From positions 48,193 through 112,192 of the forward strand of contig CAJUOK010000003.1 in assembly GCA_910588015.1 (NCBI GenBank): a stretch of 64,000 nucleotides of DNA, in the 5' to 3' direction. A program made the position numbers and the translations under genes. The first letter of the stretch is position 1. Every line of letters begins with the position of its first letter. The notes under the pieces were generated by a model. It did not search any database. It saw only the letters and a program-made list of their open reading frames with translations, and had not been told where the DNA came from. The stretch comes from an uncultured Christensenellaceae bacterium. GTDB lineage: Bacteria > Bacillota > Clostridia > Christensenellales > UBA3700. This document shows positions 21,566-55,758 of this stretch, in pieces.

Positions 21566-23469
21566 TAGATACCCAAAGAAAAGAAGAACGAGAACGGAAA
21601 AAAGATAAAACCCGTAAACGAATGCACGTCGAGATTGACCCCGAGAATTATGAGTACACCCCGGCGAAAAAAGCTATCGATTATTACGATAATAACACAC
21701 CCCAGCGTGTAGGAATTTACGTCCGTGTTTCAACCGATGATGTCAGACAAACCACCTCTTTTGAATTGCAAAAACAATATTATGAGGAATTCGTCCAGAA
21801 GCATCCAAATTGGACGCTCATTAAAATATACCCCGATGAAGGTATAAGCGGTACTTCCCTCCGCCATCGTGATCAGTTCAATCAAATGATTTCAGACAGT
21901 CGAGCGGGAAAACTCGACCTTATAATCACAAAGAGCGTTTCCCGTTTTGCAAGAAATGTCGTTGACTGTATTGGATTGCCCCGCGACCTTGCGGAGCTGA
22001 AACCACCTGTCGGCGTTTTCTTTGAGTCCGAAGCAATCTTCTCGCTCAATGATGATTCACAAATGGCATTGTCTTTCGTTGCTACTATGGCGGAAGAAGA
22101 ATCGCATACCCGTAGCCGCAGTATGGAAACCTCTCTCCGTATGCGATTAGACCACGGTATTCCCCTCACGCCCAAATTGCTCGGTTATATGCACGATGAA
22201 GATGGCAACCTCATAATCAACCCCGAGGAAGCCCCCACAGTCAAGCTCGCTTTTTATATGTATCTTTACGGATATTCCACGCAGCAAATTGCGGACACTT
22301 TCAATGAGCTTCAGCGCAAATCATACCTTGGAAATGTCAAATGGACATCAAGCGGAATTGTGCAGATTTTAAGAAACGAACGGCACTGCGGTGATGTAAT
22401 CACAAGAAAAACTTTCACACCAAACTACCGCGACCACAAGTCAGTGCGAAACCGCGGAGAACGTCCTCAAAGCACATACCGCAAGCATCACGAAGGAATT
22501 GTATCAAGAGATGATTTCATTGCTGTGCAACGGATGTTGGATAACGCCAAGTACCGCAATAAATCATTTCTGCCAGAACTGCGTGTCATTGAAAGCGGCA
22601 TATTGAAAGGCTTTGTGGTAATCAATCCTAGATGGGCAGGGTTCAAAGAGCAAGATTATTATGAAGCAGCGCAAAGCGTGTACAAGCCTAGCAACGAACA
22701 GTCCGATACACTTGAACTTCCCCCGGCAGAAATACCTATCCCCATTGAAGCAGGAGACTTTGATTTGCGAGGCTTTGAAATAACCCGTTCAGAGTTCTTT
22801 GATAGCAACCAACGCCCCAGCATTACATTTGCGGAAAAGAAGATAAAATTCAGCACAGACTGCGTTCGCAAATTCGGTAACAACAACTATGTCGAACTTC
22901 TCATCAACCCTATTGAAAAGAAATTTGCCGTAAGAACCACAACCAAGGAAAATCGTCAAGCGGTTATCTGCTCACAGTTAGATGCAAGAAAATACCTACC
23001 AAAGACAATATCCGCTTCCGCTTTCAGCGATACCATCTTTTCAATTTTCGGTTGGAACCCCGAATGCAAATACCGCATCATCGGTTCACTTTACGAAGAA
23101 GGCAACCAAATCGCCTATATCTTCGACACCGACAATTCCGAGATTTTTTTTAAGTCTTATGTGTTAACAAGCCAGGAAGCAAACGAAGCTGGCGGTAAAA
23201 CAGGTATCCAACCTTATACTCCTTCTGGGAAACGCATCCGTGCAATACCGCAAGAATGGACGAACTCGTTCGGTAAACCCTACTACCAACACGAACAGAC
23301 TCTCGCTGCGTTAGCCGCACAAAGTGAAGCCGATTGGCAAATCCGAATGGAAGGACAGCTCGTTGAGACGGGCAGAAAAATAAATGTGACTGGCTTTGAA
23401 GATTTGAAGCAGTACATAAACCAAGAATTAAATGGCACACTGCCACAGGAGGTAAACCCTAATGAGTGA
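21562..23469 (+). CDS. Large serine recombinase (635 aa) with an extra C-terminal domain (recombinase D).
   Basis: VRVSTDD catalytic motif, KSVSRFARN, recombinase domain; C-terminal about 230 aa homologous to the downstream ORF. Confidence 0.8.
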   Translation: MIDTQRKEERERKKDKTRKRMHVEIDPENYEYTPAKKAIDYYDNNTPQRVGIYVRVSTDDVRQTTSFELQKQYYEEFVQKHPNWTLIKIYPDEGISGTSLRHRDQFNQMISDSRAGKLDLIITKSVSRFARNVVDCIGLPRDLAELKPPVGVFFESEAIFSLNDDSQMALSFVATMAEEESHTRSRSMETSLRMRLDHGIPLTPKLLGYMHDEDGNLIINPEEAPTVKLAFYMYLYGYSTQQIADTFNELQRKSYLGNVKWTSSGIVQILRNERHCGDVITRKTFTPNYRDHKSVRNRGERPQSTYRKHHEGIVSRDDFIAVQRMLDNAKYRNKSFLPELRVIESGILKGFVVINPRWAGFKEQDYYEAAQSVYKPSNEQSDTLELPPAEIPIPIEAGDFDLRGFEITRSEFFDSNQRPSITFAEKKIKFSTDCVRKFGNNNYVELLINPIEKKFAVRTTTKENRQAVICSQLDARKYLPKTISASAFSDTIFSIFGWNPECKYRIIGSLYEEGNQIAYIFDTDNSEIFFKSYVLTSQEANEAGGKTGIQPYTPSGKRIRAIPQEWTNSFGKPYYQHEQTLAALAAQSEADWQIRMEGQLVETGRKINVTGFEDLKQYINQELNGTLPQEVNPNE

Positions 23470-26590: not shown

Positions 26591-28114
26591 CTATTTCTTT
26601 CCCCAGACCTTCTCATAAACCACTTCGTCTATCTCATCCTCCTTGTTGTGATAGTAATAAGTTTTGACCTTGGCAACTTGCCCGTTTGTCAATAAAAACT
26701 CAAAGTTCTCTCTGCCATAAATTGTTATCTTCTTGACAACTGCCTTGAAGATTTCAGGATCGAACTCCGTCAACTCGGTTGGTCGCATAATAACCTTGTT
26801 ATATCTTCGTAGGTCGTTTTCGGCTTCGATATTCATAGCATTTGTACGCAGCAGTTCCTTTCGCCTATCTTCCGCTCTGACGATTTGATTCAACAGTCGG
26901 TTATACTCGCCCTCCACAGGCCCCTCCAACAGCCCCTTGGCTTGAAGTTGAAGGTATGTGCGTTCCTGTGCAAGAAGCCTATCCAACTCGGCGTTAAACG
27001 CCACCAGTTCGCCCGACAAAGGCATCTCTACCAACCGCCGTTTTGTCCCTCGTAAGTCATTGAAAATCCTTATAAAAATGTTCTGCAATGTCTGCAACCG
27101 AACGCTAGGACTTTCACATTTTCGGAAACGCTCTTCATCGTGTCCACCGCAGACAAATCGATATTGCTGTCCATTTGTGAAACGCCTTGTGTAAGCGTGT
27201 CCGCACTTACCACACCGAATTGGAACTCCTTCAAGTGGGTTGTCCCCTTTCGGCTGAAAGACATCTACTTTCGTTTGCTTTTGCCTTACTTCATTTGCTC
27301 TTTCCCAAAGCTCCCTACTCACAATAGGCTCATGGTGGTTTTCAACATAGTATTGAGTTATCTGCCCCGTATTCTTTACCGCTCGACCATTCAGCAAGAC
27401 TCGCTTTTCCATCAAGCAGTCCCCTTTATACTTCTCATTCTTGATATAGTAAAGTATCGTTGAAGGCTTGAATGTTTTCCCCGTTGAGGTTCGTATGCCT
27501 TCTCGGTTCAGCTTTTGGCAAATAAGCGTGGAATGTCCCGTATCCGCATACTCTTCAAATATTCGTTTAATAATAGGCGCTTGAACTGGGTCGGGTACAA
27601 GTTCACCATACTCTAACTTATAGCCGTAGGGTGTGTTAGGGTTTAGTATCATCATCCCCTTTTCATACCTACGCTGAAACCCCCATCGTACCGATTCGGA
27701 AACATCCTCCGCTTCTTCCTGTGCCACGTGTGCCATTGTTACGAGTATGATATTATTCCTATCCTTAAGGGTATCAATGTTTTCTTGCTCGAAATAAACG
27801 GATACTTTTAGTTCTGTCAGCCGAGCGATGGCTCTCACGATGTCAAGCGTGTTCCTTCCAAATCGTTTGATTGACTTGCAGAGTATTCGATCTACAAGTC
27901 CCAGTTCACAATCGGTCAGCATTTGCAAGAAAGCCTCACGCCGATTCAAGTACCTACCGCTTATTCCGTTATCGACGTATATTCCGCAGTTAACCATATG
28001 CGGAGTCGTATCCATTACCTCGTTGAAGTGCCGAATTTGCGATTCCAGACTGACCGTTTGGTCTTCTGTACTAACTCTAACATACGCTGCCGTTCGATAT
28101 CGTTGTTCGCTCAT
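26591..28114 (-). CDS. Large serine recombinase C (507 aa), paralog of A.
   Basis: AAYVRVSTEDQ, KSIKRFGRN, zinc-ribbon recombinase domain (CGKCGH...C), C-terminal coiled coil. Confidence 0.8.
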   Translation of the reverse strand: MSEQRYRTAAYVRVSTEDQTVSLESQIRHFNEVMDTTPHMVNCGIYVDNGISGRYLNRREAFLQMLTDCELGLVDRILCKSIKRFGRNTLDIVRAIARLTELKVSVYFEQENIDTLKDRNNIILVTMAHVAQEEAEDVSESVRWGFQRRYEKGMMILNPNTPYGYKLEYGELVPDPVQAPIIKRIFEEYADTGHSTLICQKLNREGIRTSTGKTFKPSTILYYIKNEKYKGDCLMEKRVLLNGRAVKNTGQITQYYVENHHEPIVSRELWERANEVRQKQTKVDVFQPKGDNPLEGVPIRCGKCGHAYTRRFTNGQQYRFVCGGHDEERFRKCESPSVRLQTLQNIFIRIFNDLRGTKRRLVEMPLSGELVAFNAELDRLLAQERTYLQLQAKGLLEGPVEGEYNRLLNQIVRAEDRRKELLRTNAMNIEAENDLRRYNKVIMRPTELTEFDPEIFKAVVKKITIYGRENFEFLLTNGQVAKVKTYYYHNKEDEIDEVVYEKVWGKK

Positions 28115-28141
28115 TTCTACCTCCTATTTTTGGTATGACAC

Positions 28142-28170
28142 ACATTACCAAAATCACGCCATATAGTCCA
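28142..28170 (-). promoter_or_regulatory. Promoter of recombinase C: CGCTGGACT-N17-TAATGT.
   Basis: Same architecture as five other promoters in the window. Confidence 0.45.
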
Positions 28171-28238
28171 GCGAATTGCCCCAAACAAGCGAAAAGAGCA
28201 GACAGCATTTTGCCATCTGCCCTTCGCTATCAAACGCC

Positions 28239-29852
28239 TCATTCGATTGAATCGGTTATTGTGATGCCGCAACCGAAATCATAGGTTAATTCCTTTCCGT
28301 CAACTGTAACTCGGTTTACAATTTTGCGGAACATATCCCCATCAAACTCCGTCAGTTTTCCTTTCTCTGCAACCATATCCCATAACGCCTGGAATCGGTC
28401 ATTCGTATGTTCAAGGTCAACTACTTGCAGCGAACGCTTTTTCTGCTCTTGCTTTAGTGCTTCTATTTCGGTGATGAGCTGTTCTCTTTCACGCTCCCCG
28501 CCAATAAGGTCTTCGGCTGTTTGAGCAGTTTTAACCGCCTTGACAAGCTGTCTTTCCTTGGAAGCTATCTTCTTTGCAAGTTCATCGTTCGCTTGGTCAG
28601 CAAGCCGTTCGGTCAGCGTTTCTTGAATGCTCTCGGTTATTTTCTTGACCATTCCTTCCTTATCTTCGATGAGCATATTGACCACTCGAACGAAGGAATC
28701 GTACAGCTCCGATTCTTTGACCGCTAACTGTGTGCATACCGAGTTCCCATTCAGTTTGTGGTTTGAGCAAGTCCAAGTTTTTATATACTTATCACCGCAT
28801 TGATACCCGTGCCTACGGAAAATGCAACCGCATTGATAGCAGTACACCTTGCTCGATAAAGGATACTTTGAAGAATAACCGCCCCTACCCGATTTAGTGC
28901 AAGACCGTAAGCTACGGCGGTATTCCATTTCACGCTTTACCCTTTCGAACATCTCATCGCTGATTATTGGCTCGTGGTCATCTTCGACATAGTATTGCTG
29001 CGAGTCGGCAGATGCTGCCCGCTTCTTTTGAACCCAAGGTCTTACGATTGTTTTCTGCAGGAGGGCATCGCCTATGTACTTTTCATTCTGCAACATCCCT
29101 TCTATAGTGCTTTCGTCCCATCTATCCAATCCAGAAGGAGACTTGATGTTCCGCCGCTTCAATTCCTCACTTATCAGTCTGAAACTCAACCCCGAGAGGT
29201 ATAGCTCGAATATGAGTCGTACCACTTCCGCTTGCTCTTTGTTGATAACATACTCGTGGTTGAGGACATCATATCCATAGGTCTTTGCTTTTCTTACAAA
29301 CCCTTGCTCGTTTCTGCGTTGGATACCCCAATTCACGCTATCGCTCAAGCTGTCTGATTCTTCCTGGGCGATTGATGCGTACATTGTCAGCATAAAGTTG
29401 GTTCGCTTATCATCTTGCAGACTGTTGAGCTTTTCCTTTTCAAACACCACGGGGATACGTTTCTCTCGCAACTGCTCTATGATGGTCAAACTGTCCAGCA
29501 CATTTCGAGCGAAACGGCTGACCGACTTGACGAGTATCATATCTATCTTTCCGTCCAGCGCATCTTTTATCATCTCACGAAACTTCGCCCTCTTTTTCAT
29601 ACTTCGTCCCGAGATGCCTTCATCAGCATAAACGCCAACCATCTCCCAGTTGGGGTTGCTTAAAATGAGCCTTGTGTAATACTCCATTTGGGACTTGAAA
29701 CTCGTCTGTTGTTCTTCTCTGCCCGTGGATACCCTGGCATAGGCTGCAACTTTCTTTTTTTGCATTATTATGGGCGAATCATCATCCACAAACAATCGTC
29801 TTGAGTTTGTTGCAGGGATTACCCTTATTTTTCTTTCATCTTTCATCAGCAC
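28239..29852 (-). CDS. Large serine recombinase B (about 510-537 aa), TnpX/TndX-like subfamily, related to D.
   Basis: AAYARVSTGREEQ, KSVSRFARN; start overlaps the end of A. Confidence 0.8.
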   Translation of the reverse strand: MLMKDERKIRVIPATNSRRLFVDDDSPIIMQKKKVAAYARVSTGREEQQTSFKSQMEYYTRLILSNPNWEMVGVYADEGISGRSMKKRAKFREMIKDALDGKIDMILVKSVSRFARNVLDSLTIIEQLREKRIPVVFEKEKLNSLQDDKRTNFMLTMYASIAQEESDSLSDSVNWGIQRRNEQGFVRKAKTYGYDVLNHEYVINKEQAEVVRLIFELYLSGLSFRLISEELKRRNIKSPSGLDRWDESTIEGMLQNEKYIGDALLQKTIVRPWVQKKRAASADSQQYYVEDDHEPIISDEMFERVKREMEYRRSLRSCTKSGRGGYSSKYPLSSKVYCYQCGCIFRRHGYQCGDKYIKTWTCSNHKLNGNSVCTQLAVKESELYDSFVRVVNMLIEDKEGMVKKITESIQETLTERLADQANDELAKKIASKERQLVKAVKTAQTAEDLIGGEREREQLITEIEALKQEQKKRSLQVVDLEHTNDRFQALWDMVAEKGKLTEFDGDMFRKIVNRVTVDGKELTYDFGCGITITDSIE

Positions 29853-31384
29853 ACCTCCGTAACTGCTTTTATGTCAATAGATTGTATTTCATCTTCGCTT
29901 GTTGCCCAGTAGATGATACTCACATATGCTACCTCGCCCGAAGCCAGGTGGAATGCAAGGTGTTCTCTGTCCACTACAACGATTCGGCGTACTATCTGCT
30001 CGAACACTTTTTCATCGAACTCGGTCAGTTTGCCAGTCCGCATTACCGCAGAATTGTAAACCTTCAAATCGTTTTGAGCCTTCACGTTTTGTCCGTTGGT
30101 CTCCAACATAGCCTTCTTCTGTTCTTCTGCCTTGACGATGCGGTTGAGCAGTTTTCTGTACTCTTCCTCAATCTCACCGTGAAGCAATCCCCTAGCTTGG
30201 AGCTGAAGGTATGTCTTTTCTTGGTTGAGCATTCGTGTAATCTCGTTATCGAGTTCTCGAACCTCATCTGTTACTTGCATCTCCATCAAGGTCTTTCGCT
30301 TGCCTTCTATCATATTAAAGATTGCAACGAACACCCGCTCGAGTGTTTCCAACTTGACACTCTCGCTTCTGCAAGCATTCATTCCTCGGCTGCTTTTAAG
30401 GTAGCAACCATACCTTGTTTTCTTATCAGACCGCTTTATTCGTTGAAAGTTATGTCCGCACTTTCCGCACACGATTTTTCCCTTAAACGGGTCGAACTCT
30501 CTGTTCTCGGCTCGAACATACTCCGATGTCTTATGCCTTTCTATCATCCGTTGGCAAGTATCCCATAGCTCTCGGCTAACAATCGGTTCGTGGTCGTTCT
30601 CGACATAGTATTGTTGAGCTTCGCCCATATTCTTTATTTTCTTGCCATCAGCCACCACATACTTTTGGAGCATCGCATCTCCCTTGTACTTTTCATTTTT
30701 GATTATATAAAGGATTGTGCTTGCCAAGAACTGCCGTCCGTGCGCTGTGGTATATCCATCCTTATTTAATCGTCTCGCTATCTCCGCCGTGCCGATTCCC
30801 TTTGCGTAACTCTCATAAATGCGCTTGACGATTTTCGCTTCATCTGGCACGACAACTAATTGCCCATCTTCGTTGAACTTGTACCCGAGAGGTGTATTGG
30901 GGTTGACTATCAACTGCCCTTGCTCGAACCGCTTCTTGAAAGTCCATTTGATTGCTTCGGATTTTTCCTCATATTCCTCTTGCGCTATCTGCGCCATGGT
31001 AACAAGCAGAATATTGTTGCGGTCATTGATGGTATGCAAATTCTCTTGTTCGAAATACACTGGGATGTTCAGCTCTGTCAGCCTTGTAACCGCCCTTATT
31101 GTATCCAAAGTGCATCGTCCAAACCTCTTTATCGATTTGCATAAAATGAAATCAATCTTATGCAACTCCGCATCTTGCATCATCCGCTTGAAGTCCTTTC
31201 TTGCCCCAATGAATCGTCCGCTTATTCCGTTGTCGATGTAGCAACCGCAGTTTACCATTAGCGGGTCTGCATCCATCACTTCATTAAAGTATCGAACTTG
31301 CGATTCCAGGGATACTTCTTGCCCATAGTTTTTGCTGACTCGGCAATAAGCAACCGTTCGTTTTTTTGATTCGTCCATTGGCAT
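29846..31384 (-). CDS. Large serine recombinase A (about 512 aa from ATG 31384; the track GTG start is at 31411).
   Basis: AYCRVSKNYGQE, KSIKRFGRC, CGKCGH zinc ribbon; AGGAGG RBS 5 nt before the ATG at 31382-31384. Confidence 0.8.
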   Translation of the reverse strand: MPMDESKKRTVAYCRVSKNYGQEVSLESQVRYFNEVMDADPLMVNCGCYIDNGISGRFIGARKDFKRMMQDAELHKIDFILCKSIKRFGRCTLDTIRAVTRLTELNIPVYFEQENLHTINDRNNILLVTMAQIAQEEYEEKSEAIKWTFKKRFEQGQLIVNPNTPLGYKFNEDGQLVVVPDEAKIVKRIYESYAKGIGTAEIARRLNKDGYTTAHGRQFLASTILYIIKNEKYKGDAMLQKYVVADGKKIKNMGEAQQYYVENDHEPIVSRELWDTCQRMIERHKTSEYVRAENREFDPFKGKIVCGKCGHNFQRIKRSDKKTRYGCYLKSSRGMNACRSESVKLETLERVFVAIFNMIEGKRKTLMEMQVTDEVRELDNEITRMLNQEKTYLQLQARGLLHGEIEEEYRKLLNRIVKAEEQKKAMLETNGQNVKAQNDLKVYNSAVMRTGKLTEFDEKVFEQIVRRIVVVDREHLAFHLASGEVAYVSIIYWATSEDEIQSIDIKAVTEVC

Positions 31385-31409
31385 ATATCCTCCTTTTTTA
31401 GTATGACAC

Positions 31410-31438
31410 ACATTACCATAGAACCAAAACTATATCCA
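31410..31438 (-). promoter_or_regulatory. Promoter of recombinase A: CGCTGGATAT-N17-TAATGT.
   Basis: Read directly; shares the CTGGA -35 region with the moron-array promoters. Confidence 0.45.
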
Positions 31439-46742: not shown

Positions 46743-48341
46743 TTAAATAAAAATTAGCCCACGGCTGTCATAGATTGATTCGGTTGATGCCCCGTTGCGT
46801 ATTGCTCTGTCCAGAGCCATAACGGTTGCAACCGCTCCGTCTATTTTTTCCGTTGACTTTGATTTGTCCATTTTTATGTTCCCGGCAGGGTCTGTGCGAA
46901 CGCATACATTATCCATCATCCAATGCAGCACTGGCTGACCATTGTGGCGGATTTTCTTGCCAAGCACCAAGTTCATCAGTTCTTTGGTTGCAGGACTCAT
47001 ATCCTTAAACCCCTGCCCAAACGGGATGACAGTGAAACCGAGGTTCTCAAGGTTCTGTGTCATTTGAACTGCACCCCATCGGTCAAAGGCGATTTCCTTT
47101 ATGTTGTATTTCTTGCCAAGCTCATCAATGAAATTCTCGATGAACCCGTAATGGATAACGTTGCCTTCCGTGGTCTGTATATATCCTTGCTGTTCCCAGA
47201 TATCATACGGCACATGGTCTTTTGCAACTCTCCGCTCCAAGTTCTCCTCGGGTATCCAGAAGAACGACAAGATGTAATAATTTTCATCCGTATCCGTTGG
47301 CGGAAACACCAACACAAACGCCGTAATATCGGTTGAGGACGAAAGGTCAAGTCCGCCGTAACACACTCTGCCTTCCAAGCTCTCGGGCGAGAAATCCGCC
47401 TTACACGCCTCCCACTTTTCCATTGGCATCCAACGCACCGCTTGCTTTACCCATTGATTCAATCGCAACTGTCGGAAGGTGTTCTCCTCGGCTGGGTTCT
47501 GCCGCGCCGATTCAAACGCCACTCGAACCTTGTCGATGCCTACTGTTATGCCAAGACTGGGGTTCGCTTTTTTCCATACTTTTGGATCCGTCCAGTCATC
47601 ATTTTCGTCTGCCCCATATATTACGGGATAGAAGGTTGAGTCTAGTTTTCTGCCTAGAATAATGTCCTTGGCTTTTTGGTGTGTTTCGTAGCAGATGGAT
47701 TTTGTATCCGTTCCCGCAGTCGTGATTAAAAAGTACAGCGGTTGCATTCGAGCATCGCCAGAGCCTTTGGTCATAACATCAAACAGCTTTCTGTTCGGTT
47801 GGGTGTGCAACTCATCGAACACAACGCCGTGAATATTGAAACCATGCTTGCTGTACGCTTCCGCCGAAAGAACTTGATAGAAGCTGTTCTTCGGCAGATA
47901 GATTATACGCTTGCTTGCCGTGAGTATCTTGCACCGCTTGTTCAAAGCAGGACACATCCGAATCATATCGGCAGCGACTTCAAAGACAATCGATGCTTGC
48001 CCTCTGTCCGCTGCACAACCATAAACTTCGGCTCGTTCCTCACCATCTCCGCAAGTAAGCAAAAGGGCAACAGCCGCCGCCAACTCGCTCTTGCCCATCT
48101 TCTTCGGTATTTCTATGTACGCAGTATTAAACTGCCGATACCCGTTCGGCTTGATGATTCCAAAAAGGTCTCGAATTATCTGTTCTTGCCAATCGATAAG
48201 TTCAAACGGCTCTCCCGCCCATGTGCCTTTCGTATGACATAGGCACTGTATGAAATTGACCGCATAGTCCGCCGCCGACTTGTCATATACGGAGTCCTTG
48301 GCTTTGAACTTGGTCGGCACATATTTCTTTAGCTTTCTCAA
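46743..48341 (-). CDS. terL: Terminase large subunit.
   Basis: 532 aa; Walker A-like KKMGKS; Terminase_1 pattern; nuclease C-terminal half. Confidence 0.85.
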   Translation of the reverse strand: MRKLKKYVPTKFKAKDSVYDKSAADYAVNFIQCLCHTKGTWAGEPFELIDWQEQIIRDLFGIIKPNGYRQFNTAYIEIPKKMGKSELAAAVALLLTCGDGEERAEVYGCAADRGQASIVFEVAADMIRMCPALNKRCKILTASKRIIYLPKNSFYQVLSAEAYSKHGFNIHGVVFDELHTQPNRKLFDVMTKGSGDARMQPLYFLITTAGTDTKSICYETHQKAKDIILGRKLDSTFYPVIYGADENDDWTDPKVWKKANPSLGITVGIDKVRVAFESARQNPAEENTFRQLRLNQWVKQAVRWMPMEKWEACKADFSPESLEGRVCYGGLDLSSSTDITAFVLVFPPTDTDENYYILSFFWIPEENLERRVAKDHVPYDIWEQQGYIQTTEGNVIHYGFIENFIDELGKKYNIKEIAFDRWGAVQMTQNLENLGFTVIPFGQGFKDMSPATKELMNLVLGKKIRHNGQPVLHWMMDNVCVRTDPAGNIKMDKSKSTEKIDGAVATVMALDRAIRNGASTESIYDSRGLIFI

Positions 48342-51318: not shown

Positions 51319-53730
51319 TTATGCTTCTTTTTCATAGAGCTTTGCAATTGCTCTCAACACATATTTGACACAAGGTAATGCCACCCCGTTACCCCACAGC
51401 TTATACTCCGCTGCGTCGGAATACGGGTCTTTTATGTACGAAATAATCTGCGACCTGGTCTTCGGTTTTATTGCACTCCCTGTTGTCAAACGATAGGTTT
51501 CAAACACCTCCGTCCAGAACTCTATATCTTCTTCCATAGGTTCTGCGATGCCAAGGTTGCGACACCAATCGCTAGGGAAACCTTGAAGTTTTGCGCATTC
51601 GGTTGGTGTGAGCCTACGCACGGAATAATCCGCGCCGACCATTCCGTTATGATAGCCGGGGCAAGTGCCGTTCAACACGGTGTTCCCCTTGTTCTTCAGC
51701 ACATACCTACCCACATCACGACTTGCGCTAGGATCGAATCCGTAAGGCTCGACAACCGCCCCCGGACCTTTCGCCATAAGCGGAGGTTCGAGTTCTTCTT
51801 CAAAGGACGGTTTGAACTTTGCGTTTGTACCTTGGTTGAAAGCATCACGCCCCACCCCATAGCTCGGTGCGTTTATGACATTGGGGTCTTTGTAATCCCT
51901 AGCCATAAGCGTAGGCGATTTCTCTTTCTCTACATCAGTGTAGCTTCCCGTTGTCATGCAGTAAACGGCAGGTTCACCACCGTGCGTACAAGTCAAGGTC
52001 GGTGCCTGGTTTTTTGGAACATTGCAAGCCGACTTCCCTCCGCCTTGGTCTACTGCGTAAACTTCATCGCTACTGTCGGAAGGGACGTGTTCTTCCACCA
52101 CGGCAATTCCGCCTTGGTTACAAGTGGGGTTTCCGCCGTTCCCGTCAAGCGTTCTCGAAGTTTCCGCTTCGTAGACTCCGCTGTTAGGGTTGCTCGACTT
52201 CATTGAGTTGCTGTCCTTTGCGCAAATGCCAAAGGTGCGCTGAATCACGCAGTTGAAGTTGTCCTTGTCGGGCATCCGTTGATTGCCACCTGCGTTCTGC
52301 TTTGTGAGCGTGGGCGAAATTTGTCCACCATCCCAATTGCAAGGTTCAAAGAGCGTCTGGTCGTTATTGCAAGCAAGCGTAGCCGATTTGTCTTTTTGAA
52401 TCAACGGCCCCTTGCCACCACCTTCACAGCCACTGCGGATTTTCATCAGAAGCGGAACACTGTTTTTTCTATTTTCAGAATCGACCACAAAAGGCTGATT
52501 GTTTCCACCCATACCATAAGTCGATGCTACTGTAGGTGCAACTTTTAACGGCCCCCTATATCTTGTGTCTTGACTGTGATTCTCATAAACCTCGGGTAGC
52601 TCATTATCAGTTTGTTCTTCGTTTAAAACAAGCGGAACATTCCCTCCGCCTGTTCCCATTCGAGAAGTGAGCGTTTGAACTTTGCCATCCTCTGCAATTT
52701 TTACTCGGCTGTCCGTAGGATGGTTTTCCAATGCCACCGCTGCCGGGACTTTCCCCGCTCGTATCGTGGGTGATGTTTCTTCTTCGTAGCCAATGCTCCT
52801 GGACTGCGCTGAATGCTCGGTATTGAAACCCGCCGCCATAACACACGGAGGATGGTGCGCTTCTGCGCGAAGTGCCGCAACCTTGTCTTTGGTTACGCCC
52901 ATTCGGCTTCCGCCTTGGTCGTTGAGAACCACTCCGTTTCTGCCAGAGGACATTCCGCAGTTCACACCGAGCGTTGCTTCAACATCGCCCGTTACGCTTC
53001 CGTTATACCCATCGAAGCCTGCCGCTCGAGCGCAAGTTTCAGCACCTCTGGCAGTTCCTTCCCTCGTATCGCTGCTCTCCGCAAAATCCCTTGACACGCC
53101 TTCGGACTCAAATAGTATTTTGCCTGCACATTCGCTTCCAAAATCTGCGACAAGGTAGATTCTGCGACGTCTTTGAGGGACTCCGAAGTATTGCGCATCG
53201 ATTGTGCGCCAGGCGAGAGAGTAACCGTTTCCCACGATTTCTCCCGCATAAGTCCACTTCCCGTCTGCAGGTTCAGGTATAAGTATTTCTGGTTCTTTAA
53301 CGGAGCAGACTGCTTCGAGAACCGAGCGGAAGTCTTGTCCCTTGTTGGAGCTGAATGCTCCGGGGACGTTTTCCCAAACAATGAACCTTGGATATTTTCC
53401 ATTTGTTTTACTCCTCATTTCTTTGATGATGCGTATGGCTTGGTAGAAAAGGTTTGACCGCTCTCCGTTTTCCAAACCCGCACGTTTTCCCGCAACAGAT
53501 AAATCTTGGCAAGGCGAACCGAAAGTGATTATGTCCACGGGTTCAACCTCGCCACCATCTATCTTGGAAACATCCCCGTAGTGCTTCACATTGGGGAAGT
53601 GCTTATTCGTTACGGCAATCGCAAACGGCTCGATTTCGGACTTCCACTTGGGTTCAATGCCGCAAAGCACTCCCCCAAGCGGAAAGCCACCCGAGCCATC
53701 AAACAGACTGCCCAGTGTTAACTTCTTCAT
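51319..53730 (-). CDS. DNA (cytosine-5)-methyltransferase, unusually long (803 aa) with an extended multi-TRD variable region.
   Basis: Motif I LFDGSGGF, IV GSPCQDLS, ENV (IVWENVPG), IX-X RRLTPTECAKLQGFP. About 550 aa between ENV and motif IX with Gly-rich linkers and repeated (P/S)TL(T) elements. Confidence 0.85.
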   Translation of the reverse strand: MKKLTLGSLFDGSGGFPLGGVLCGIEPKWKSEIEPFAIAVTNKHFPNVKHYGDVSKIDGGEVEPVDIITFGSPCQDLSVAGKRAGLENGERSNLFYQAIRIIKEMRSKTNGKYPRFIVWENVPGAFSSNKGQDFRSVLEAVCSVKEPEILIPEPADGKWTYAGEIVGNGYSLAWRTIDAQYFGVPQRRRRIYLVADFGSECAGKILFESEGVSRDFAESSDTREGTARGAETCARAAGFDGYNGSVTGDVEATLGVNCGMSSGRNGVVLNDQGGSRMGVTKDKVAALRAEAHHPPCVMAAGFNTEHSAQSRSIGYEEETSPTIRAGKVPAAVALENHPTDSRVKIAEDGKVQTLTSRMGTGGGNVPLVLNEEQTDNELPEVYENHSQDTRYRGPLKVAPTVASTYGMGGNNQPFVVDSENRKNSVPLLMKIRSGCEGGGKGPLIQKDKSATLACNNDQTLFEPCNWDGGQISPTLTKQNAGGNQRMPDKDNFNCVIQRTFGICAKDSNSMKSSNPNSGVYEAETSRTLDGNGGNPTCNQGGIAVVEEHVPSDSSDEVYAVDQGGGKSACNVPKNQAPTLTCTHGGEPAVYCMTTGSYTDVEKEKSPTLMARDYKDPNVINAPSYGVGRDAFNQGTNAKFKPSFEEELEPPLMAKGPGAVVEPYGFDPSASRDVGRYVLKNKGNTVLNGTCPGYHNGMVGADYSVRRLTPTECAKLQGFPSDWCRNLGIAEPMEEDIEFWTEVFETYRLTTGSAIKPKTRSQIISYIKDPYSDAAEYKLWGNGVALPCVKYVLRAIAKLYEKEA

Positions 53731-54991
53731 TTTCGTTTAACTCCTTCACGAGTTCCTTGTAAGGTATCTGCTGTCCGCCACGGATGCAGTAAACGTTCTC
53801 GGCATCGTTGGTGTTCTCCACATACCTGCGCAAGATGACCGATGCGTACTTTTCGTCAAGTTCCATCGTGTAGCAAATGCGGTTAGAAAGTTCGCAAGCC
53901 ATAAGCGTAGAACCACTCCCACCAAAGGTATCCACCACGATTGCGTTTTCCTGCGTTGAGTTCTTCAACGGATAGGAAAGCAAATCAAGCGGTTTACTGG
54001 TGGGATGGTTCTCGTTGCGCTTCGGCTTTTTGAAGTTCCAAATCGTAGTCTGCTTTCTGTCGGAATACCAACTGTGCTTGCCGTTTTTAAGGAAGCCGTA
54101 CAGCACAGGCTCGTGCTGCCATTGATAGTCACTGCGCCCAAGAACGAGCGAGTCCTTAACCCATATGCAGCACCCCGCTAGGTGGAAGCCTGCGTTGGAG
54201 AATGCGTTACGGAAATTCAAACCTTCGGTGTCAGCGTGGAAAACATATCCCGCCGCCCCCGGTTCTGCGTGTGCGACCATATTCTTGAAAGCCGCAAGCA
54301 AGAAGTTGTAAAACTCCTCGTTCTTGAGCGAGTCGTTCTGTATTTTCAGTCCGCTCGATGATGTGAACGATACTCCGTAGGGCGGGTCGGTAAGGATAAG
54401 GTTTGCCTTCTTCCCGTCCATCAGAAGGTTGACATCGGCTTCGTTGGTTGCATCGCCGCAGACAAGTCTGTGCCTTCCGACAACCCACACATCACCACGC
54501 TCAACGAAGGATGCCTTCTCGAGTGCTTCCGTAAGGTCATAGTCATCGTCTTCCACTTCGGCTTTAACGTCCGCAAAAAAGTCTGCGAGTTCCTTTTCGT
54601 CAAAACCCGTAAGACCAAGGTCGAAGTTGAGACCTTCCAACTCCTGCAATTCCACACGCAAGAGTTCTTCATCCCAACCCGCATCAAGCGCCATTCGGTT
54701 GTCCGCCAAAATGTATGCTTTCTTTTGCGCTTCGGTGAGATGGTCAACGAACACGCACGGTACTTCTTTGATGCCTTCCGCTTTCGCCGCCATAACTCTG
54801 CCGTGTCCTGCTATGATGGTCAAATCCCTATCAACGATGACTGGGTTAATGAAGCCGAACTCACGCAGCGAAGAACGCAGTTTCAAAATCTGCTCCTGGC
54901 TGTGGGTTCTGGCATTGTTCGCATACGGCACGAGCTTATCGGTTGCGACAAGCGTGAGTTCGGTAGTCGTATTCATTACACCAACCCCCAC
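53699..54991 (-). CDS. ParB-N-terminal nuclease domain fused to a DNA N6-adenine/N4-cytosine methyltransferase.
   Basis: N-terminal ParBc (IIAGHGR); MTase DPPY motif and SAM-binding region. Confidence 0.8.
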   Translation of the reverse strand: MGVGVMNTTTELTLVATDKLVPYANNARTHSQEQILKLRSSLREFGFINPVIVDRDLTIIAGHGRVMAAKAEGIKEVPCVFVDHLTEAQKKAYILADNRMALDAGWDEELLRVELQELEGLNFDLGLTGFDEKELADFFADVKAEVEDDDYDLTEALEKASFVERGDVWVVGRHRLVCGDATNEADVNLLMDGKKANLILTDPPYGVSFTSSSGLKIQNDSLKNEEFYNFLLAAFKNMVAHAEPGAAGYVFHADTEGLNFRNAFSNAGFHLAGCCIWVKDSLVLGRSDYQWQHEPVLYGFLKNGKHSWYSDRKQTTIWNFKKPKRNENHPTSKPLDLLSYPLKNSTQENAIVVDTFGGSGSTLMACELSNRICYTMELDEKYASVILRRYVENTNDAENVYCIRGGQQIPYKELVKELNENEEVNTGQSV

Positions 54992-55758
54992 TCTGCAAAC
55001 TTCTCGAAACCGCCAAGGTCGAAGATGAACTCCCTAGCAATCTCCACGATTTCGTTATAAGGTTTTCCGTCTATGTACTCGTCCCCGATTGCACAGCACA
55101 GTTCCACAGGTACTCCCGTTTCCTGTGCTTTAATGAATGCATACACATTCACGCTCACATCCGCCTTCGACAAGTCCTTACCATGCAAGCCACCACCCGT
55201 TACCGAGTCCGCCATATCCGAGCCGAGCTTGCGGTTGGTTGCGCCCGTGTCAACATCAGTGCCACCAAACCAATCTCCAAGCGGATTGACCTCTGCCGTT
55301 TTATACTTGCTTGAAAGTTCCGTGCTTCTCGCTTGGCTTTGGCAAATAATGAGCCTTTCGCCATTCAGGATGTATTTCCCGTCAGTGGGATACGCAGCAT
55401 AGATTTCTCTTGCCACTCTTGCGAGTTCTTTCTGTTCCTTTGTAAGCGGTACACCCCTGAATATGCCGTTGTCACCGCAGCGGAAACCATCCGCCTGGTT
55501 CTCTGCGAGATGCTTGTCTTGCGGCACTTCAACATAATCCACAGCGACATTACCCGCAATGCGTTTTACGAGTTCCTTGACTTCCGACGTTGCCAAGCAC
55601 ACCGAACTTTCTGCGATTATATGGCACTTGCCGTGTCCGATAAGGACTTCAACCGCAATCTTGGGATTGTCCTGGTTCTTGTACGCAAGGTCAACTATCG
55701 CTCCCGCAATTCGGTCTGCCACCTTATCGGGATGACTAGGGTTTACTTTTTCAAACAT
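54976..55758 (-). CDS. metK-like: Truncated MetK-like S-adenosylmethionine synthetase homolog (260 aa).
   Basis: SHPDKVADRIAGAIVD versus MetK GHPDKIADQISDAVLD; DTGATNRK...GGGLHGKDLSKADVS versus MetK DCGLTGRK...GGGAFSGKDPSKVDRS. About 120 aa shorter than canonical MetK. Confidence 0.65.
   Translation of the reverse strand: MFEKVNPSHPDKVADRIAGAIVDLAYKNQDNPKIAVEVLIGHGKCHIIAESSVCLATSEVKELVKRIAGNVAVDYVEVPQDKHLAENQADGFRCGDNGIFRGVPLTKEQKELARVAREIYAAYPTDGKYILNGERLIICQSQARSTELSSKYKTAEVNPLGDWFGGTDVDTGATNRKLGSDMADSVTGGGLHGKDLSKADVSVNVYAFIKAQETGVPVELCCAIGDEYIDGKPYNEIVEIAREFIFDLGGFEKFAEWGLV

What the first reader, a model, noticed from the sequence alone, without database searches (positions are those of the whole stretch)
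51319..53730. 803-aa C5-cytosine methyltransferase with a giant variable region carrying repeated PTLT-type elements (likely multispecific)
All conserved C5-MTase motifs are present, but the region between ENV and motif IX is about 550 aa. It has several Gly-rich linkers and at least six (S/P)TL(T) elements resembling the TL dipeptide of target-recognition domains. Multispecific phage C5-MTases (SPR/phi3T type) carry 3-4 TRDs in under 500 aa. This protein would carry more, implying broad anti-restriction self-methylation.
Basis: partly seen in the sequence, partly recalled or inferred. Interest (0 to 1): 0.55.

Follow-up and report, generated by a model that had tools for sequence, protein, structure and literature searches.

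The report
Phage cytosine methylase: twelve modules, hidden gene
A prophage gene encodes a DNA cytosine methylase whose middle is a string of twelve swappable DNA-recognition modules, probably letting the phage protect its DNA against many restriction enzymes, and the same gene hides a second, conserved small gene in another reading frame.

Summary
ORF 51319..53730 (-) is an 803-aa C5-cytosine methyltransferase with every catalytic motif. Motifs VIII and IX lie 518 aa apart.

The insert is an array of twelve 30-50 aa blocks, not one domain. Each block carries the "(S/P)T(L/I/V)...GG...hydrophobic" signature of target-recognising domains (TRDs).
- Blocks are gained, lost and reordered among thousands of relatives.
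- They evolve under purifying selection as strong as the catalytic core.
- They resemble characterised Bacillus-phage TRDs about as much as those resemble each other.

The multispecific reading is therefore well supported by architecture, but no target sequence could be assigned and no methylation data exist. The protein sits at the top of a continuous size range (blocks 1-12; motif VIII-IX distance 219 to about 700 aa), so it is not unique.

An unanticipated result: nucleotides about 53013-53165 evolve as a +1-frame coding sequence. A 136-aa ORF (52992..53402, -) with its own Shine-Dalgarno and ATG is nested in the methylase gene. Its tail is homologous to the pre-TRD segment that classical C5-methylases carry in frame. 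The arrangement is conserved in phages of Clostridia, Streptococcus, Mycobacterium and Alphaproteobacteria. I found no published description. The closest precedent is the nested beta chain of M.EcoHK31I.

The parts
51319..53730 (-). C5-cytosine DNA methyltransferase CDS, 803 aa (0 frame)
   Evidence: ORF list; PF00145 E = 7.8e-42; TIGR00675; M.HhaI alignment
53137..53730 (-). N-terminal catalytic part, aa 1-198 (motif I 53683-53706; IV GSPCQ 53506-53520; VI ENV 53365-53373; VIII QRRRRIYLV 53149-53175)
   Evidence: AF2 confident here; 0-frame wobble signature
53020..53136 (-). 'Linker' aa 199-237: 0-frame read-through of the +1 gene tail. Poorly conserved as protein in frame 0, with dN/dS 1.3-1.6 and pS only 0.13-0.25
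52930..53019 (-). Block A, aa 238-267 (GFDGYNGSVTGDVEATLGVNCGMSSGRNGV)
   Evidence: absent in P0044; block HMM map; dN/dS
52840..52929 (-). Block B, aa 268-297
   Evidence: absent in P0013 and P0044; usually adjacent to C
52732..52839 (-). Block C, aa 298-333 (...ETSPTIRAGKVPAAVA)
   Evidence: absent in P0064
52630..52731 (-). Block D, aa 334-367 (ENHPTDSRV...VQTLTSRMGTGGGNVPL)
   Evidence: paralog of E (hhalign 68 bits, 98.9%); matches the rho11s/phi3T 'F-type' TRD at 20.4 against a null maximum of 15.8
52480..52629 (-). Block E plus spacer, aa 368-417 (ENHSQDTRY...APTVASTYGMGGNNQPFVV). Extra copy, rare alongside D
   Evidence: 60-aa clean deletion in P0002-P0008
52342..52479 (-). Block F, aa 418-463 (...KDKSATLACNNDQTLFEP)
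   Evidence: absent in P0009 and P0011
52240..52341 (-). Block G, aa 464-497 (CNWDGGQISPTLTKQNAGGNQRMPDKDNFNCV)
   Evidence: matches the rho11s 'B-type' TRD at 20.6 against a null maximum of 15.8
52093..52239 (-). Block H, aa 498-546 (...ETSRTLDGNGGNPTCNQGGIAVV). The most widespread block
   Evidence: best-matched stretch in most representatives; about 100 bits in nearly all relatives
51967..52092 (-). Block I, aa 547-588 (...NQAPTLTCTHGGEPA). Relatives carry an alternative block next to or instead of it
   Evidence: The alternative block matches the Bacillus shared C-terminal TRD: hhalign 95%, score 38.7 against a null maximum of 16.3
51871..51966 (-). Block J, aa 589-620 (...EKSPTLMARDYKDPNVI)
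   Evidence: J-K 25.5, C-J 21.2, I-J 20.2
51751..51870 (-). Block K, aa 621-660 (...ELEPPLMAKGPGAVV)
51631..51750 (-). Block L, aa 661-700 (...KGNTVLNGTCPGYHNGMV)
   Evidence: absent in P0013, P0044, P0064, P0093
51322..51630 (-). C-terminal catalytic part, aa 701-803: motif IX 51574-51618, a 59-aa helical insertion 51397-51573, motif X 51373-51393
52992..53402 (-). Nested +1-frame ORF, 136 aa (MENIQGS...ITEA, stop 52992-52994), entirely inside the methylase CDS
   Evidence: the +1 frame is open at this site for 108-258 codons (median 136) in 80/80 viral loci, and from the first ATG to the stop is mostly 129-143 aa, while the third frame is open for a median of 22.5 codons; present in Omega, CRP-821, DMCA, Javan191
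53411..53416 (-). Shine-Dalgarno-like GAGGAG, 8 nt upstream of the +1 ATG (53400-53402). It lies in methylase codons E104-M105-R106-S107
   Evidence: the Arg codon here is AGG in 63/74 genes against a 12.4% background, P = 7e-46; dip in synonymous entropy at aa 103-112
53013..53165 (-). Conserved tail of the +1 product (residues 80-130: AESTLSQILEANVQAKYYLSPKACQGILRRAAIRGKELPEVLKLALERQAS)
   Evidence: +1-frame pN 0.07-0.28 and pS 0.33-1.0, while in the 0 frame pN exceeds pS; frame-switch map; AF2 pLDDT 83-96, two helices; homologous to the in-frame pre-TRD segment of SPR/phi3T/rho11s/H2, score 29.4 against null 9.2 +/- 2.1
53699..54991 (-). Upstream neighbour: ParB_N + N6/N4 DNA methylase fusion, overlapping the C5-MTase start by 32 nt
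   Evidence: same neighbour in relatives
54976..55758 (-). 260-aa protein with only the S-AdoMet synthetase N-terminal domain. Conserved member of the cassette

Best explanation
The gene encodes an orphan, prophage-borne C5-cytosine DNA methyltransferase of the multispecific, modular-TRD kind.

Shown:
- One catalytic core (motifs I-VIII and IX-X) is interrupted by twelve tandem 30-50 aa modules. Each has the T-L...G-G...hydrophobic signature of a target-recognising domain.
- The modules behave as autonomous, exchangeable, selected units across a very large phage family.
- The gene sits between TerS and TerL in a conserved cassette with a ParB-N6/N4 methylase and a SAM-synthetase-like protein.

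Inferred:
- One module at a time pairs with the core to read one short DNA motif, so phage DNA receives 5-methylcytosine at many unrelated motifs (up to about 12) before packaging.
- This would make the phage resistant to many Type II restriction enzymes in its Clostridia/Oscillospirales hosts.

A second feature is also shown. Nucleotides about 53013-53165 are selected in the +1 frame, as the end of a 136-aa ORF nested inside the methylase gene with its own SD and ATG. Its conserved helical tail is the homolog of the pre-TRD segment that classical C5-methylases carry in frame.

Inferred from that: the nested ORF is translated separately and supplies this missing piece to the methylase in trans, as a small subunit.
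For: Core.

Repeat signature above chance.

Modularity:
- Clean whole-block indels among relatives that are 85-97% identical.
- Permuted block order in diverse representatives, for example F-H-D-B-C-ALT-I-L-K-J and H-D-G-K.
- 34 distinct block compositions in 42 complete viral enzymes. Block number correlates with insert length, r = 0.84.

Function of blocks:
- Query versus P0003 gives insert dN/dS 0.072, against cores at 0.068 and 0.082.
- In distant pairs, block pN is 0.07-0.25, at or below core pN.
- Blocks A, F, G and H are 80-90% identical where the core is 55-70%.

Homology to real TRDs:
- About 22 of 136 block or TRD pairs exceed the 99th percentile of a column-shuffle null, with 1.4 expected.
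- D versus the rho11s/phi3T TRD scores 20.4 and G versus the rho11s TRD 20.6. Known TRD pairs score 18.6-26.9.
- The alternative block versus the Bacillus shared C-terminal TRD scores 38.7, 95%.

Context.

Nested gene:
- Frames.
- Codon-position entropy 0.53/0.34/1.15 and pN/pS by frame.
- Frame-switch map over 74 genes.
- The +1 frame is open in all 80 loci, mostly 129-143 aa from the first ATG, with the third frame as control.
- SD codon bias, P = 7e-46.
- 1255 uniformly sized gene calls of about 150 aa, and phrog_16143.
- Tail homologous to the in-frame hinge of classical enzymes.
- AF2 is confident on the tail.
Against: - There is no methylation data and no REBASE comparison, so not one block could be assigned a target sequence.
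- AF2 gives no fold for the insert (pLDDT below 50 throughout, typically 22-33). PDB profiles align only the core.
- Similarity of individual query blocks to characterised TRDs is weak in absolute terms (hhalign probabilities 39-50%). The only strong match (95%) is to a block that this protein lacks.
- B-C, D-E, H-ALT and D-G often travel together, so some functional TRDs may span two blocks and the number of specificities may be nearer 6-9.
- Inactive 'pseudo-TRDs' exist in the Bacillus enzymes (own knowledge).
- For the nested gene there is no expression evidence. Its first 80 or so residues are unconstrained in the gut-phage group and predicted disordered, which is odd for a subunit. Openness of the upstream +1 frame alone is only moderately non-random (P 0.06-0.41 per sequence).
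Confidence: 0.7

Rival explanations
1. Only one or a few blocks are active TRDs, for instance those nearest motif IX. The others would be structural spacers or inactive pseudo-TRDs retained as a recombination reservoir.
For: Pseudo-TRDs are known in Bacillus-phage enzymes (own knowledge). G, H, J and K are present in all close relatives and could be scaffold rather than specificity modules. Some blocks travel in pairs. AF2 sees no independent folds.
Against: Every block has dN/dS comparable with the catalytic core, and several are more conserved than the core. Blocks that are 'constant' in close relatives are absent or relocated in distant ones, for example H-D-G-K and F-D-H. A reservoir of dead modules would decay.
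Confidence: 0.17
2. The insert acts as a whole: a flexible, Gly/Asn/Pro-rich DNA-binding region that gives relaxed or nearly sequence-independent cytosine methylation, rather than a set of discrete specificities.
For: The composition is G 12%, N 7%, T 7% and P 6% with no predicted secondary structure. A SAM-synthetase-like gene sits next door, consistent with very heavy methylation.
Against: The blocks are distinct, individually conserved sequences rather than a low-complexity repeat. There are no long DNA repeats. Their independent gain, loss and permutation is unexpected if they act collectively. They also show homology to specific TRDs.
Confidence: 0.07
3. The conserved +1 segment is reached by programmed ribosomal frameshifting from the methylase frame, giving an N-domain-plus-hinge short isoform, or a 0 to +1 to 0 double shift that restores a classical enzyme. 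It would then not be a separately initiated protein.
For: The +1 segment begins exactly at the end of motif VIII and is homologous to what follows motif VIII in classical enzymes. There is a run of four Arg codons just upstream. M.AquI-type alpha subunits are of similar size (own knowledge).
Against: No conserved slippery site was seen at either junction on inspection of the junction sequences of four homologs. The conserved +1 'LSQILE' overlaps the motif VIII strand, so a fusion would lose either the strand or the motif. The distance from 'AL' to the +1 stop varies, and no shift back is indicated. The +1 frame is kept open for about 95 codons upstream to an ATG at a fixed offset, with an SD maintained by synonymous-codon selection. 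The 0 frame is kept open through the overlap in all relatives.
Confidence: 0.12
4. The insert is a non-TRD domain or mobile insertion (intein, homing element or protein-interaction region) unrelated to DNA target recognition.
For: One homolog, P0089 (1091 aa), does carry intein/Hint domains. Out-of-frame HNH insertions exist in actinophage methylases (PMC11855218).
Against: Pfam, NCBIfam and PHROGs find no other domain in the query. The insert lies exactly where TRDs lie, between motifs VIII and IX. It carries the TRD signature 7-12 times and matches real TRDs. The nested ORF has no HNH or other Pfam match.
Confidence: 0.03

Closest known systems
Multispecific C5-MTases of Bacillus temperate phages (M.SPRI, M.Phi3TI, M.Rho11sI, M.H2I; Trautner, Guenthert and Noyer-Weidner laboratories)
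   Same: Phage-borne orphan enzymes with one catalytic core and several tandem short TRDs between motifs VIII and IX. TRDs are present or absent between related enzymes. They share the T-L...G-G signature, and an alternative block of this family is homologous to their common C-terminal TRD.
   Different: The Bacillus enzymes are 439-503 aa with 3-4 TRDs and a motif VIII-IX distance of about 219-283 aa. This protein is 803 aa with 12 blocks and 518 aa. Core identity is only 25-33%. Block order is freely permuted here. The pre-TRD segment ('LKDLLEEYVDEKYYL') is in frame there but is encoded in the +1 frame as part of a nested ORF here.
M.BssHII and M.(phi)BssHII
   Same: Multispecific C5-MTases with more targets (five for M.BssHII, from my own knowledge) and unusual TRD organisation. 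The titles appear in reference lists seen.
   Different: These were not compared by sequence, because the sequences and papers are not held here. They still have far fewer modules than twelve, and no nested gene is reported to my knowledge.
M.EcoHK31I (naturally heterodimeric C5-MTase)
   Same: [quoted passage not shown] This is the only precedent I found for a nested gene in a C5-MTase.
   Different: In M.EcoHK31I the nested beta chain supplies motif IX. Here motif IX is in the main frame and the nested product carries the pre-TRD segment. M.EcoHK31I is monospecific and part of an R-M system. Here the arrangement is conserved across a large phage clade.
M.AquI (split alpha/beta C5-MTase; own knowledge)
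   Same: The enzyme is divided within the variable region into separately translated parts. Mycobacterium phage Omega gp127/gp128 in this clade is similarly split.
   Different: The query's main frame is continuous. The extra product overlaps it rather than following it.
ShiLan-type out-of-frame HNH insertion in actinophage DNA methylase genes (PMC11855218)
   Same: A hidden out-of-frame ORF lies inside a phage methylase gene whose own frame stays open across it.
   Different: That element is a mobile HNH homing endonuclease insertion. The nested ORF here has no HNH or other Pfam domain, is not an insertion, and is homologous to a native methylase segment.
Monospecific C5-MTases M.HhaI and M.HaeIII (solved structures)
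   Same: Same catalytic fold and motif order. The single TRD has the T-L dipeptide followed by Gly residues (M.HhaI TRD sequence from my own knowledge).
   Different: They have one TRD of about 80-100 aa forming a folded small domain. Here there are twelve short blocks and no predicted small domain.

Membership tests
C5-cytosine DNA methyltransferases (PF00145 / TIGR00675 dcm superfamily) | Profile match above the curated threshold | tested here: met
   PF00145 scores 144 bits against a cut-off of 22. TIGR00675 scores 139.7 against 100.65.
C5-cytosine DNA methyltransferases (PF00145 / TIGR00675 dcm superfamily) | Motifs I, IV (catalytic Pro-Cys), VI (ENV), VIII (QxRxR), IX and X in the canonical order | tested here: met
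   Positions 9-16, 71-75, 120-122, 186-194, 705-719 and 780-786.
C5-cytosine DNA methyltransferases (PF00145 / TIGR00675 dcm superfamily) | SAM-dependent formation of 5-methylcytosine in DNA | not testable with these tools
   This needs expression followed by bisulfite, EM-seq or nanopore sequencing.
Multispecific (multi-TRD) phage C5-MTases, Bacillus SPR/phi3T type | Several tandem short TRDs (about 37-60 aa by my delineation) between motifs VIII and IX of one core | tested here: met
   Twelve blocks of 30-50 aa, each with a T/P-L/I/V...G...hydrophobic signature.
Multispecific (multi-TRD) phage C5-MTases, Bacillus SPR/phi3T type | TRDs are autonomous modules, individually present, absent or exchanged among related enzymes | tested here: met
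   Whole-block indels, permuted order, and 34 compositions in 42 enzymes.
Multispecific (multi-TRD) phage C5-MTases, Bacillus SPR/phi3T type | Sequence relationship of modules to characterised TRDs | tested here: inconclusive
   Query blocks D and G score 20.4 and 20.6 against rho11s TRDs (null maximum 15.8), but hhalign probabilities are only 39-50%. The strong match (95%) is to an alternative block absent from this protein. BLASTP finds nothing significant in the insert.
Multispecific (multi-TRD) phage C5-MTases, Bacillus SPR/phi3T type | Methylation of several unrelated target sequences, one per TRD | not testable with these tools
   No methylome or REBASE data are available, and m5C is poorly seen by the PacBio surveys that exist.
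Multispecific (multi-TRD) phage C5-MTases, Bacillus SPR/phi3T type | Conserved pre-TRD segment (L..lLEe.vdEKYYL) in frame between motif VIII and the TRDs | tested here: not met
   The homologous segment exists but is in the +1 frame and ends in a stop. This enzyme therefore works like the Bacillus type but is not a simple member of that family.
Multispecific (multi-TRD) phage C5-MTases, Bacillus SPR/phi3T type | Phage-borne orphan with no cognate restriction gene alongside | tested here: met
   Neighbours are a ParB-N6/N4 MTase, a SAM-synthetase-like protein, TerS, DUF4314, DUF6329 and TerL. The same cassette occurs in relatives. Only genes within about 5 kb were scanned.
Heterodimeric C5-MTases with a nested second chain (M.EcoHK31I type) | A second polypeptide encoded in another reading frame inside the methylase gene | tested here: met
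   Evolutionary evidence only: +1-frame purifying selection, a conserved ORF length in 80 loci, and an SD maintained by codon choice.
Heterodimeric C5-MTases with a nested second chain (M.EcoHK31I type) | The nested chain carries motif IX (PMC2836561) | tested here: not met
   Motif IX (RRLTPTECAKLQGFP) is in the main frame at aa 705-719. The nested product carries the pre-TRD segment.
Heterodimeric C5-MTases with a nested second chain (M.EcoHK31I type) | Both chains required for activity | not testable with these tools
   This needs the silent ATG-to-ACG knockout together with a methylation assay.
Out-of-frame homing-endonuclease insertions in phage methylase genes (ShiLan type) | The hidden frame encodes an HNH endonuclease | tested here: not met
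   There is no Pfam hit at E < 10 for the +1 products. The PHROG hit is to a 'DNA methyltransferase' family of 139 aa.

The most novel reading that the evidence does not exclude
A large clade of phage C5-cytosine methyltransferases may be two-component enzymes. The clade spans phages of Firmicutes, Actinobacteria and Alphaproteobacteria.

In this reading the main frame provides the catalytic core plus a string of minimal recognition blocks. A nested +1-frame gene, overlapping motif VIII and the linker, provides in trans the conserved pre-TRD scaffold that classical enzymes carry in cis.

Freeing the scaffold from the polypeptide would let any one of up to a dozen or more blocks dock with it. 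That would explain both the unlimited, order-independent expansion of blocks and why AF2 sees no folded small domain.

It would be a combinatorial DNA-recognition system encoded by overlapping genes, so far overlooked because gene callers suppress the nested ORF and SMRT sequencing misses m5C.
Probability: 0.3. Interest if true: 0.88.

Novelty: new variant of a known kind. Interest (0 to 1): 0.7.

Why it matters
Multispecific cytosine methylases have been a textbook curiosity limited to a handful of Bacillus phage enzymes with 2-5 targets. This analysis shows the principle is used on a much larger scale, with up to 12 shuffled modules and thousands of family members, in phages of dominant human-gut Clostridia.

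- Such enzymes would shape which phages can cross between hosts carrying different restriction systems.
- They would confound host assignment by methylation motif.
- They offer a natural library of compact (30-50 aa) DNA-reading modules for engineering programmable methylases.

The nested +1 gene matters in three further ways.
- It is a deeply conserved overlapping gene in double-stranded DNA phages, and current annotation omits it. In the query region no tool or database listed it as a gene.
- It splits a classical enzyme fold between two reading frames.
- It explains an otherwise puzzling 'positively selected' linker. It also shows that a regional dN/dS above 1 combined with low dS is a practical flag for hidden genes.

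Tried and rejected
- AF2 of the full protein with a 72-sequence alignment gave a confident core, but the insert stayed at pLDDT below 50 (typically 22-33) with no secondary structure. The structural test of 'TRD or not' is therefore uninformative. I did not run fold searches on that model.
- A profile search of the family against PDB aligns only motifs I-VIII and IX. No TRD of M.HhaI or M.HaeIII is aligned to any block.
- BLASTP of the query against the real SPR, phi3T, rho11s and H2 proteins finds only the core significant. Insert matches have E of 1-8. Profile comparison with a shuffle null was needed.
- The DNA-level repeat search found only 12-22 nt chance-level repeats, so the blocks are not recent duplications.
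- Assigning target sequences to blocks was not possible. There is no REBASE, source names are generic ('DNA cytosine methyltransferase'), and the shortest relatives seen still have at least 3 blocks in most cases.
- The classic Trautner-laboratory papers (PMC450048, PMC457134, PMC1171429, PMC340776) are not held. What I state about TRD names, specificities and sizes is my own knowledge plus my own delineation from the sequences.
- The literature searches found no description of C5-MTases with more than five specificities, or of this nested ORF. The recoding review has no DNA-methylase case.
- For the +1 product: Pfam finds nothing, Foldseek against PDB finds nothing significant, and inspection of both junction sequences in four homologs showed no conserved slippery heptamer or +1 shift site.
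- An antisense-gene explanation for the wobble pattern was considered and dismissed without a formal test, because the sense +1 peptide is protein-like and homologous to a known methylase segment.
- Testing whether +1-frame openness alone proves a gene gave only moderate support (P 0.06-0.41 per sequence), so it was not relied on.
- P0404's contig was meant to show both gene calls overlapping. The methylase is cut by the contig end there, so it was uninformative.

Full report
OBSERVATION

The minus-strand ORF 51319..53730 is real and encodes 803 aa.
- It is a C5-cytosine DNA methyltransferase. PF00145 scores E = 7.8e-42 in three separate stretches, and TIGR00675 scores 1.6e-40.
- phmmer against PDB aligns residues 8-135, 170-195 and 703-722 with M.HhaI.
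- All motifs can be read directly: I 9-16, IV GSPCQ 71-75, VI ENV 120-122, VIII QRRRRIYLV 186-194, IX RRLTPTECAKLQGFP 705-719, X GNGVALP 780-786.
- Motif VIII and motif IX are 518 aa apart.
There are seven strict [SAPQ][PTAR]T[LIV] elements against 0.31 expected in 5000 shuffles of the insert. T[LIV] followed by GG occurs six times against 0.71 expected.

CONTEXT

The window holds a temperate siphovirus-like prophage.
- Three tandem large serine recombinases lie at 26591-31411.
- Tail genes, capsid, portal and TerL (46743-48341) follow.
- Next comes the methylation cassette, then RusA and a primase/helicase.

The cassette order is HNH, TerS, a 260-aa protein with only the SAM-synthetase N-domain, a ParB-N6/N4 methylase, this C5 methylase, then DUF4314 and on to TerL. 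It is conserved in relatives from independent metagenomes. No restriction gene is adjacent, so the enzyme is an orphan.

The nearest annotated phages are human-gut Oscillospirales, Acutalibacteraceae and Ruminococcus phages at 47-58% protein identity.

WHAT THE INSERT IS

Homologs are extremely numerous. The word-indexed search saturated at 8000 hits, and the top 120 range from 648 to 803 aa.

Among relatives that are 85-97% identical to the query, the differences are clean deletions or insertions of 30-60 aa. Examples are a 60-aa block missing in P0002 and different blocks missing in P0009, P0011 and P0013. Using these boundaries the insert divides into twelve blocks, A-L (aa 238-700). Each ends in a short hydrophobic stretch, and each has a T/P-L/I/V...G signature.

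Four further results show that the blocks are autonomous functional modules.

1. The insert alone finds 3473 cluster representatives at 50% identity (E <= 1e-3) in 1.84 billion proteins. HMMs of the blocks then show the same blocks in different orders in different proteins. For example, the query is A-B-C-D-E-F-G-H-I-J-K-L, P0136 is F-H-D-B-C-ALT-I-L-K-J, P0161 is A-D-I-ALT-H-C-B-E-G, P0207 is H-D-G-K and P0265 is F-D-H.

2. An independent set of 42 complete enzymes from viral contigs behaves the same way.
   - Block number ranges from 1 to 12.
   - It correlates with the VIII-IX distance, r = 0.84.
   - There are 34 different compositions.

3. The blocks are under purifying selection as strong as the catalytic core.
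   - Query versus P0003 gives insert dN/dS 0.072, against 0.068 and 0.082 for the two core halves.
   - In saturated distant pairs, block pN is 0.07-0.25, at or below the core.
   - Several blocks are 80-90% identical where the core is 55-70%.

4. There are no long DNA repeats, so these are old, diverged modules and not recent duplications.

RELATION TO CHARACTERISED TRDs

I fetched the real genes of M.SPRI, M.Rho11sI, M.H2I and M.Phi3TI. I delimited their TRDs from the segments they share or lack. The resulting TRDs are 37-60 aa and carry the same 'sPTLT...GG...I/V' look.

Profile-profile comparison of all blocks and these TRDs gives about 22 of 136 pairs above the 99th percentile of a column-shuffle null, where 1.4 are expected.
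- D and E are clear paralogs (68 bits).
- D versus the rho11s/phi3T TRD scores 20.4 and G versus the rho11s-specific TRD scores 20.6. The null maximum is 15.8.
- This is the same range as bona fide TRDs against each other (18.6-26.9).

An alternative block that many relatives carry next to or instead of block I ('...EDVxFTLNTxDRHAVY') is a clear homolog of the C-terminal TRD common to all four Bacillus enzymes ('...EPAFTVNTIDRHGVA'). hhalign gives 95%, score 38.7, against a null maximum of 16.3.

From my own knowledge that shared TRD specifies GGCC, but I could not test specificity.

The architecture and behaviour therefore match the multispecific principle, scaled up. The Bacillus enzymes have 3-4 TRDs in 439-503 aa, and this one has twelve blocks in 803 aa.

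LIMITS OF THAT CONCLUSION

- No block could be assigned a target.
- AF2 is confident for the core but leaves residues 210-707 at pLDDT below 50 (typically 22-33) with no secondary structure. PDB profiles align only the core.
- Some blocks travel together (B-C, D-E, H-ALT, D-G), so the number of specificities could be lower than twelve.
- The protein is not unique. It is the longest of the top 120 close homologs without an intein and exceeds all 42 complete viral enzymes (518 against a maximum of 487 aa). Representatives with VIII-IX distances of 627-735 aa and lengths up to 1368 aa do exist.

AN UNEXPECTED SECOND FEATURE

In the dN/dS scan, the 39 codons after motif VIII (aa 199-237) stood out. 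pS was only 0.13-0.25 where the rest of the gene has 0.6-0.9, and dN/dS was 1.3-1.6 in every distant pair.

Translating the three frames explains this. The +1 frame reads '...STLSQILEANVQAKYYLSPKACQGILRRAAIRGKELPEVLKLALERQASMGITEA*'. That peptide is strongly conserved in P0003, P0015 and P0016, while the 0-frame translation of the same bases is not.

The arrangement has four constant features: the core is in frame 0, the peptide is in +1 overlapping the motif VIII strand, a +1 stop follows, and frame 0 stays open. The same arrangement is present in:
- Mycobacterium phage Omega,
- Roseobacter phage CRP-821,
- Caulobacter phage DMCA,
- Streptococcus phage Javan191.

All 40 listed tblastn hits out of 178 phage records matched as two adjacent pieces, which is what a frame change between them would give. 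I confirmed the frame change directly only in the four phages above.

Evidence that the +1 frame is translated:
- In the ungapped 30-codon core, nucleotide entropy at +1 codon positions 1, 2 and 3 is 0.53, 0.34 and 1.15 bits.
- In the +1 frame pN is 0.07-0.28 and pS is 0.33-1.0. In frame 0, pN exceeds pS in all 21 pairs.
- Over 74 distinct genes the wobble signature is 0-frame for aa 3-192, mixed for 193-202, +1-frame for 203-242, and 0-frame again from 253.

HOW IT IS PROBABLY EXPRESSED

The conserved tail is the end of the 136-aa ORF 52992..53402, which one search had listed mechanically.
- In all 80 viral loci retrieved with the peptide pattern, the +1 frame is open at this site (108-258 codons, median 136). 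From the first ATG to the stop is mostly 129-143 aa, despite only 46-60% identity. The third frame at the same place is open for a median of 22.5 codons.
- The ATG lies at a fixed 19-nt offset from a Glu-Met-Arg triplet of the methylase in 58 of 74 genes. It is preceded by GAGG-type Shine-Dalgarno sequences (query GAGGAG at 53411-53416).
- The Arg codon that creates the SD is AGG in 63 of 74 genes, against 12.4% AGG among other Arg codons of the same genes. The binomial P is 7e-46, not phylogeny-corrected.
- Synonymous entropy dips at aa 103-112.

Databases hold 404 short calls of the gut-type peptide (all 120 listed are 48-98 aa, none a long protein carrying it in frame). They also hold 1255 calls matching the CRP-821 +1 product. 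The 120 listed are 148-208 aa, nearly all 148-187, and cover 87-100% of it.

phrog_16143, a 139-aa family labelled 'DNA methyltransferase', matches the Omega, CRP-821 and DMCA versions at about 1e-10.

I therefore favour separate initiation over frameshifting.
- Inspection of both junction sequences in four homologs showed no conserved slippery site.
- A fusion would destroy either the motif VIII strand or the conserved 'LSQILE'.

WHAT THE NESTED PRODUCT IS

- It has no Pfam domain.
- AF2 predicts only the tail with confidence (pLDDT 83-96, helices 100-113 and 119-135), and Foldseek finds nothing significant.
- The tail is homologous to the in-frame segment 'RLKDLLEEYVDEKYYLNEDK...' that precedes the TRDs in the Bacillus enzymes. 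The hhalign score is 29.4 against a null of 9.2 +/- 2.1 with maximum 18.9.

In this clade, then, a normally in-frame piece of the C5-methylase is encoded out of frame, overlapping motif VIII and the linker.

The closest precedent is M.EcoHK31I. [quoted passage not shown] A different hidden-frame element, an HNH homing endonuclease, has been described in actinophage methylase genes (PMC11855218).

I found no description of the present arrangement.

MECHANISM, WITH STATUS OF EACH STEP

Shown:
- The catalytic core is complete.
- There are twelve selected, exchangeable TRD-like blocks.
- The gene is an orphan in a late-region cassette with a second methylase and a SAM-synthetase-like gene.
- A +1 gene with its own SD and ATG has a tail under +1-frame purifying selection.

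Inferred:
- Each block, or pair of blocks, directs methylation of one short motif, giving broad protection of phage DNA from Type II restriction.
- The nested product is made and acts with the methylase.

Speculative:
- The nested product supplies in trans the scaffold with which any one block forms the DNA-reading small domain. That would explain both the free permutation of blocks and the absence of a predicted fold.

VERDICT

The multispecific interpretation is supported in architecture but untested in function.

The thing is best described as a new, greatly expanded variant of the known multispecific phage C5-methylase kind. It differs from the Bacillus family in a defining respect, because the pre-TRD segment is out of frame.

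I score 0.70 overall.

Noticed in passing
window 52992-53402 (-), conserved tail 53013-53165, SD 53411-53416: A 136-aa ORF in the +1 frame is nested inside the methylase gene. It has its own SD and ATG, and its tail is under +1-frame purifying selection. The arrangement is conserved in phages of Clostridia, Streptococcus, Mycobacterium, Roseobacter and Caulobacter.
   Followed up: yes
window 54976-55758 (-): A 260-aa protein matches only the N-terminal domain of S-adenosylmethionine synthetase (PF00438, E = 4e-11). It is always present, at the same 260-aa length, directly upstream of the two methylases in relatives (L005, L007, L008). It may be a truncated or divergent SAM synthetase supplying or regulating methyl donor during phage DNA methylation.
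   Followed up: partly
window 53699-54991 (-): A ParB_N + N6/N4 DNA methylase fusion (430 aa) has its 3' end overlapping the C5-methylase start by 32 nt, which suggests translational coupling of the two methylases.
   Followed up: partly
window 26591-31411 (-) and 21562-23469 (+): Three large serine recombinases lie in tandem (507, 537 and 521 aa) with a fourth nearby on the other strand. This is an unusual number for one prophage end and may reflect nested or adjacent integrated elements.
   Followed up: no
P0089 (homolog, 1091 aa): One family member carries intein/Hint domains (PF14890, PF13403) inserted in the methylase, so this gene family also hosts inteins.
   Followed up: no
L010 1078-2382 (Mycobacterium phage Omega gp127/gp128); L011 1102-2861 (Roseobacter phage CRP-821): In Omega the C5-methylase is split into two consecutive ORFs of 247 and 184 aa, both annotated as DNA methyltransferase, in addition to the nested +1 ORF. 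CRP-821 has an extra 97-aa 'site-specific DNA-cytosine methylase' fragment two genes downstream. Natural splitting seems common in this clade.
   Followed up: partly
L010, L011, L012 (+1 ORFs): In the actinophage and alphaproteobacterial phage versions the +1 product is also conserved upstream ('...GWFGRTSPASC..EDG..PSSGRW.NSGM.SP.EC.TL..SEWP...'). 0-frame pS is depressed to 0.32-0.47 over aa 111-185. In the gut-phage group the first 80 or so residues are unconstrained. It is unexplained why initiation is kept 95 codons upstream there.
   Followed up: partly
window 51397-51573 (-), aa 720-778: A conserved 59-aa helical insertion lies between motifs IX and X ('DWC..LG...P...DI.FW..VFETYR...KPK...QI...L..P.SD.AEYK'). 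Classical C5-methylases lack it, and AF2 predicts it confidently. Its function is unknown.
   Followed up: no
L005 7607-9024: In close relatives the space between the methylase cassette and TerL holds Amidoligase_2 and GGACT (gamma-glutamyl cyclotransferase-like) genes. The window has other small ORFs there, so this is a variable accessory slot.
   Followed up: no
DMCA +1 product: The DMCA +1 product also gives a weak hit (E = 4e-4) to positions 23-137 of phrog_1008, a 329-aa 'DNA methyltransferase' family. Somewhere, this sequence may therefore exist in frame within a longer protein. I did not resolve this.
   Followed up: no
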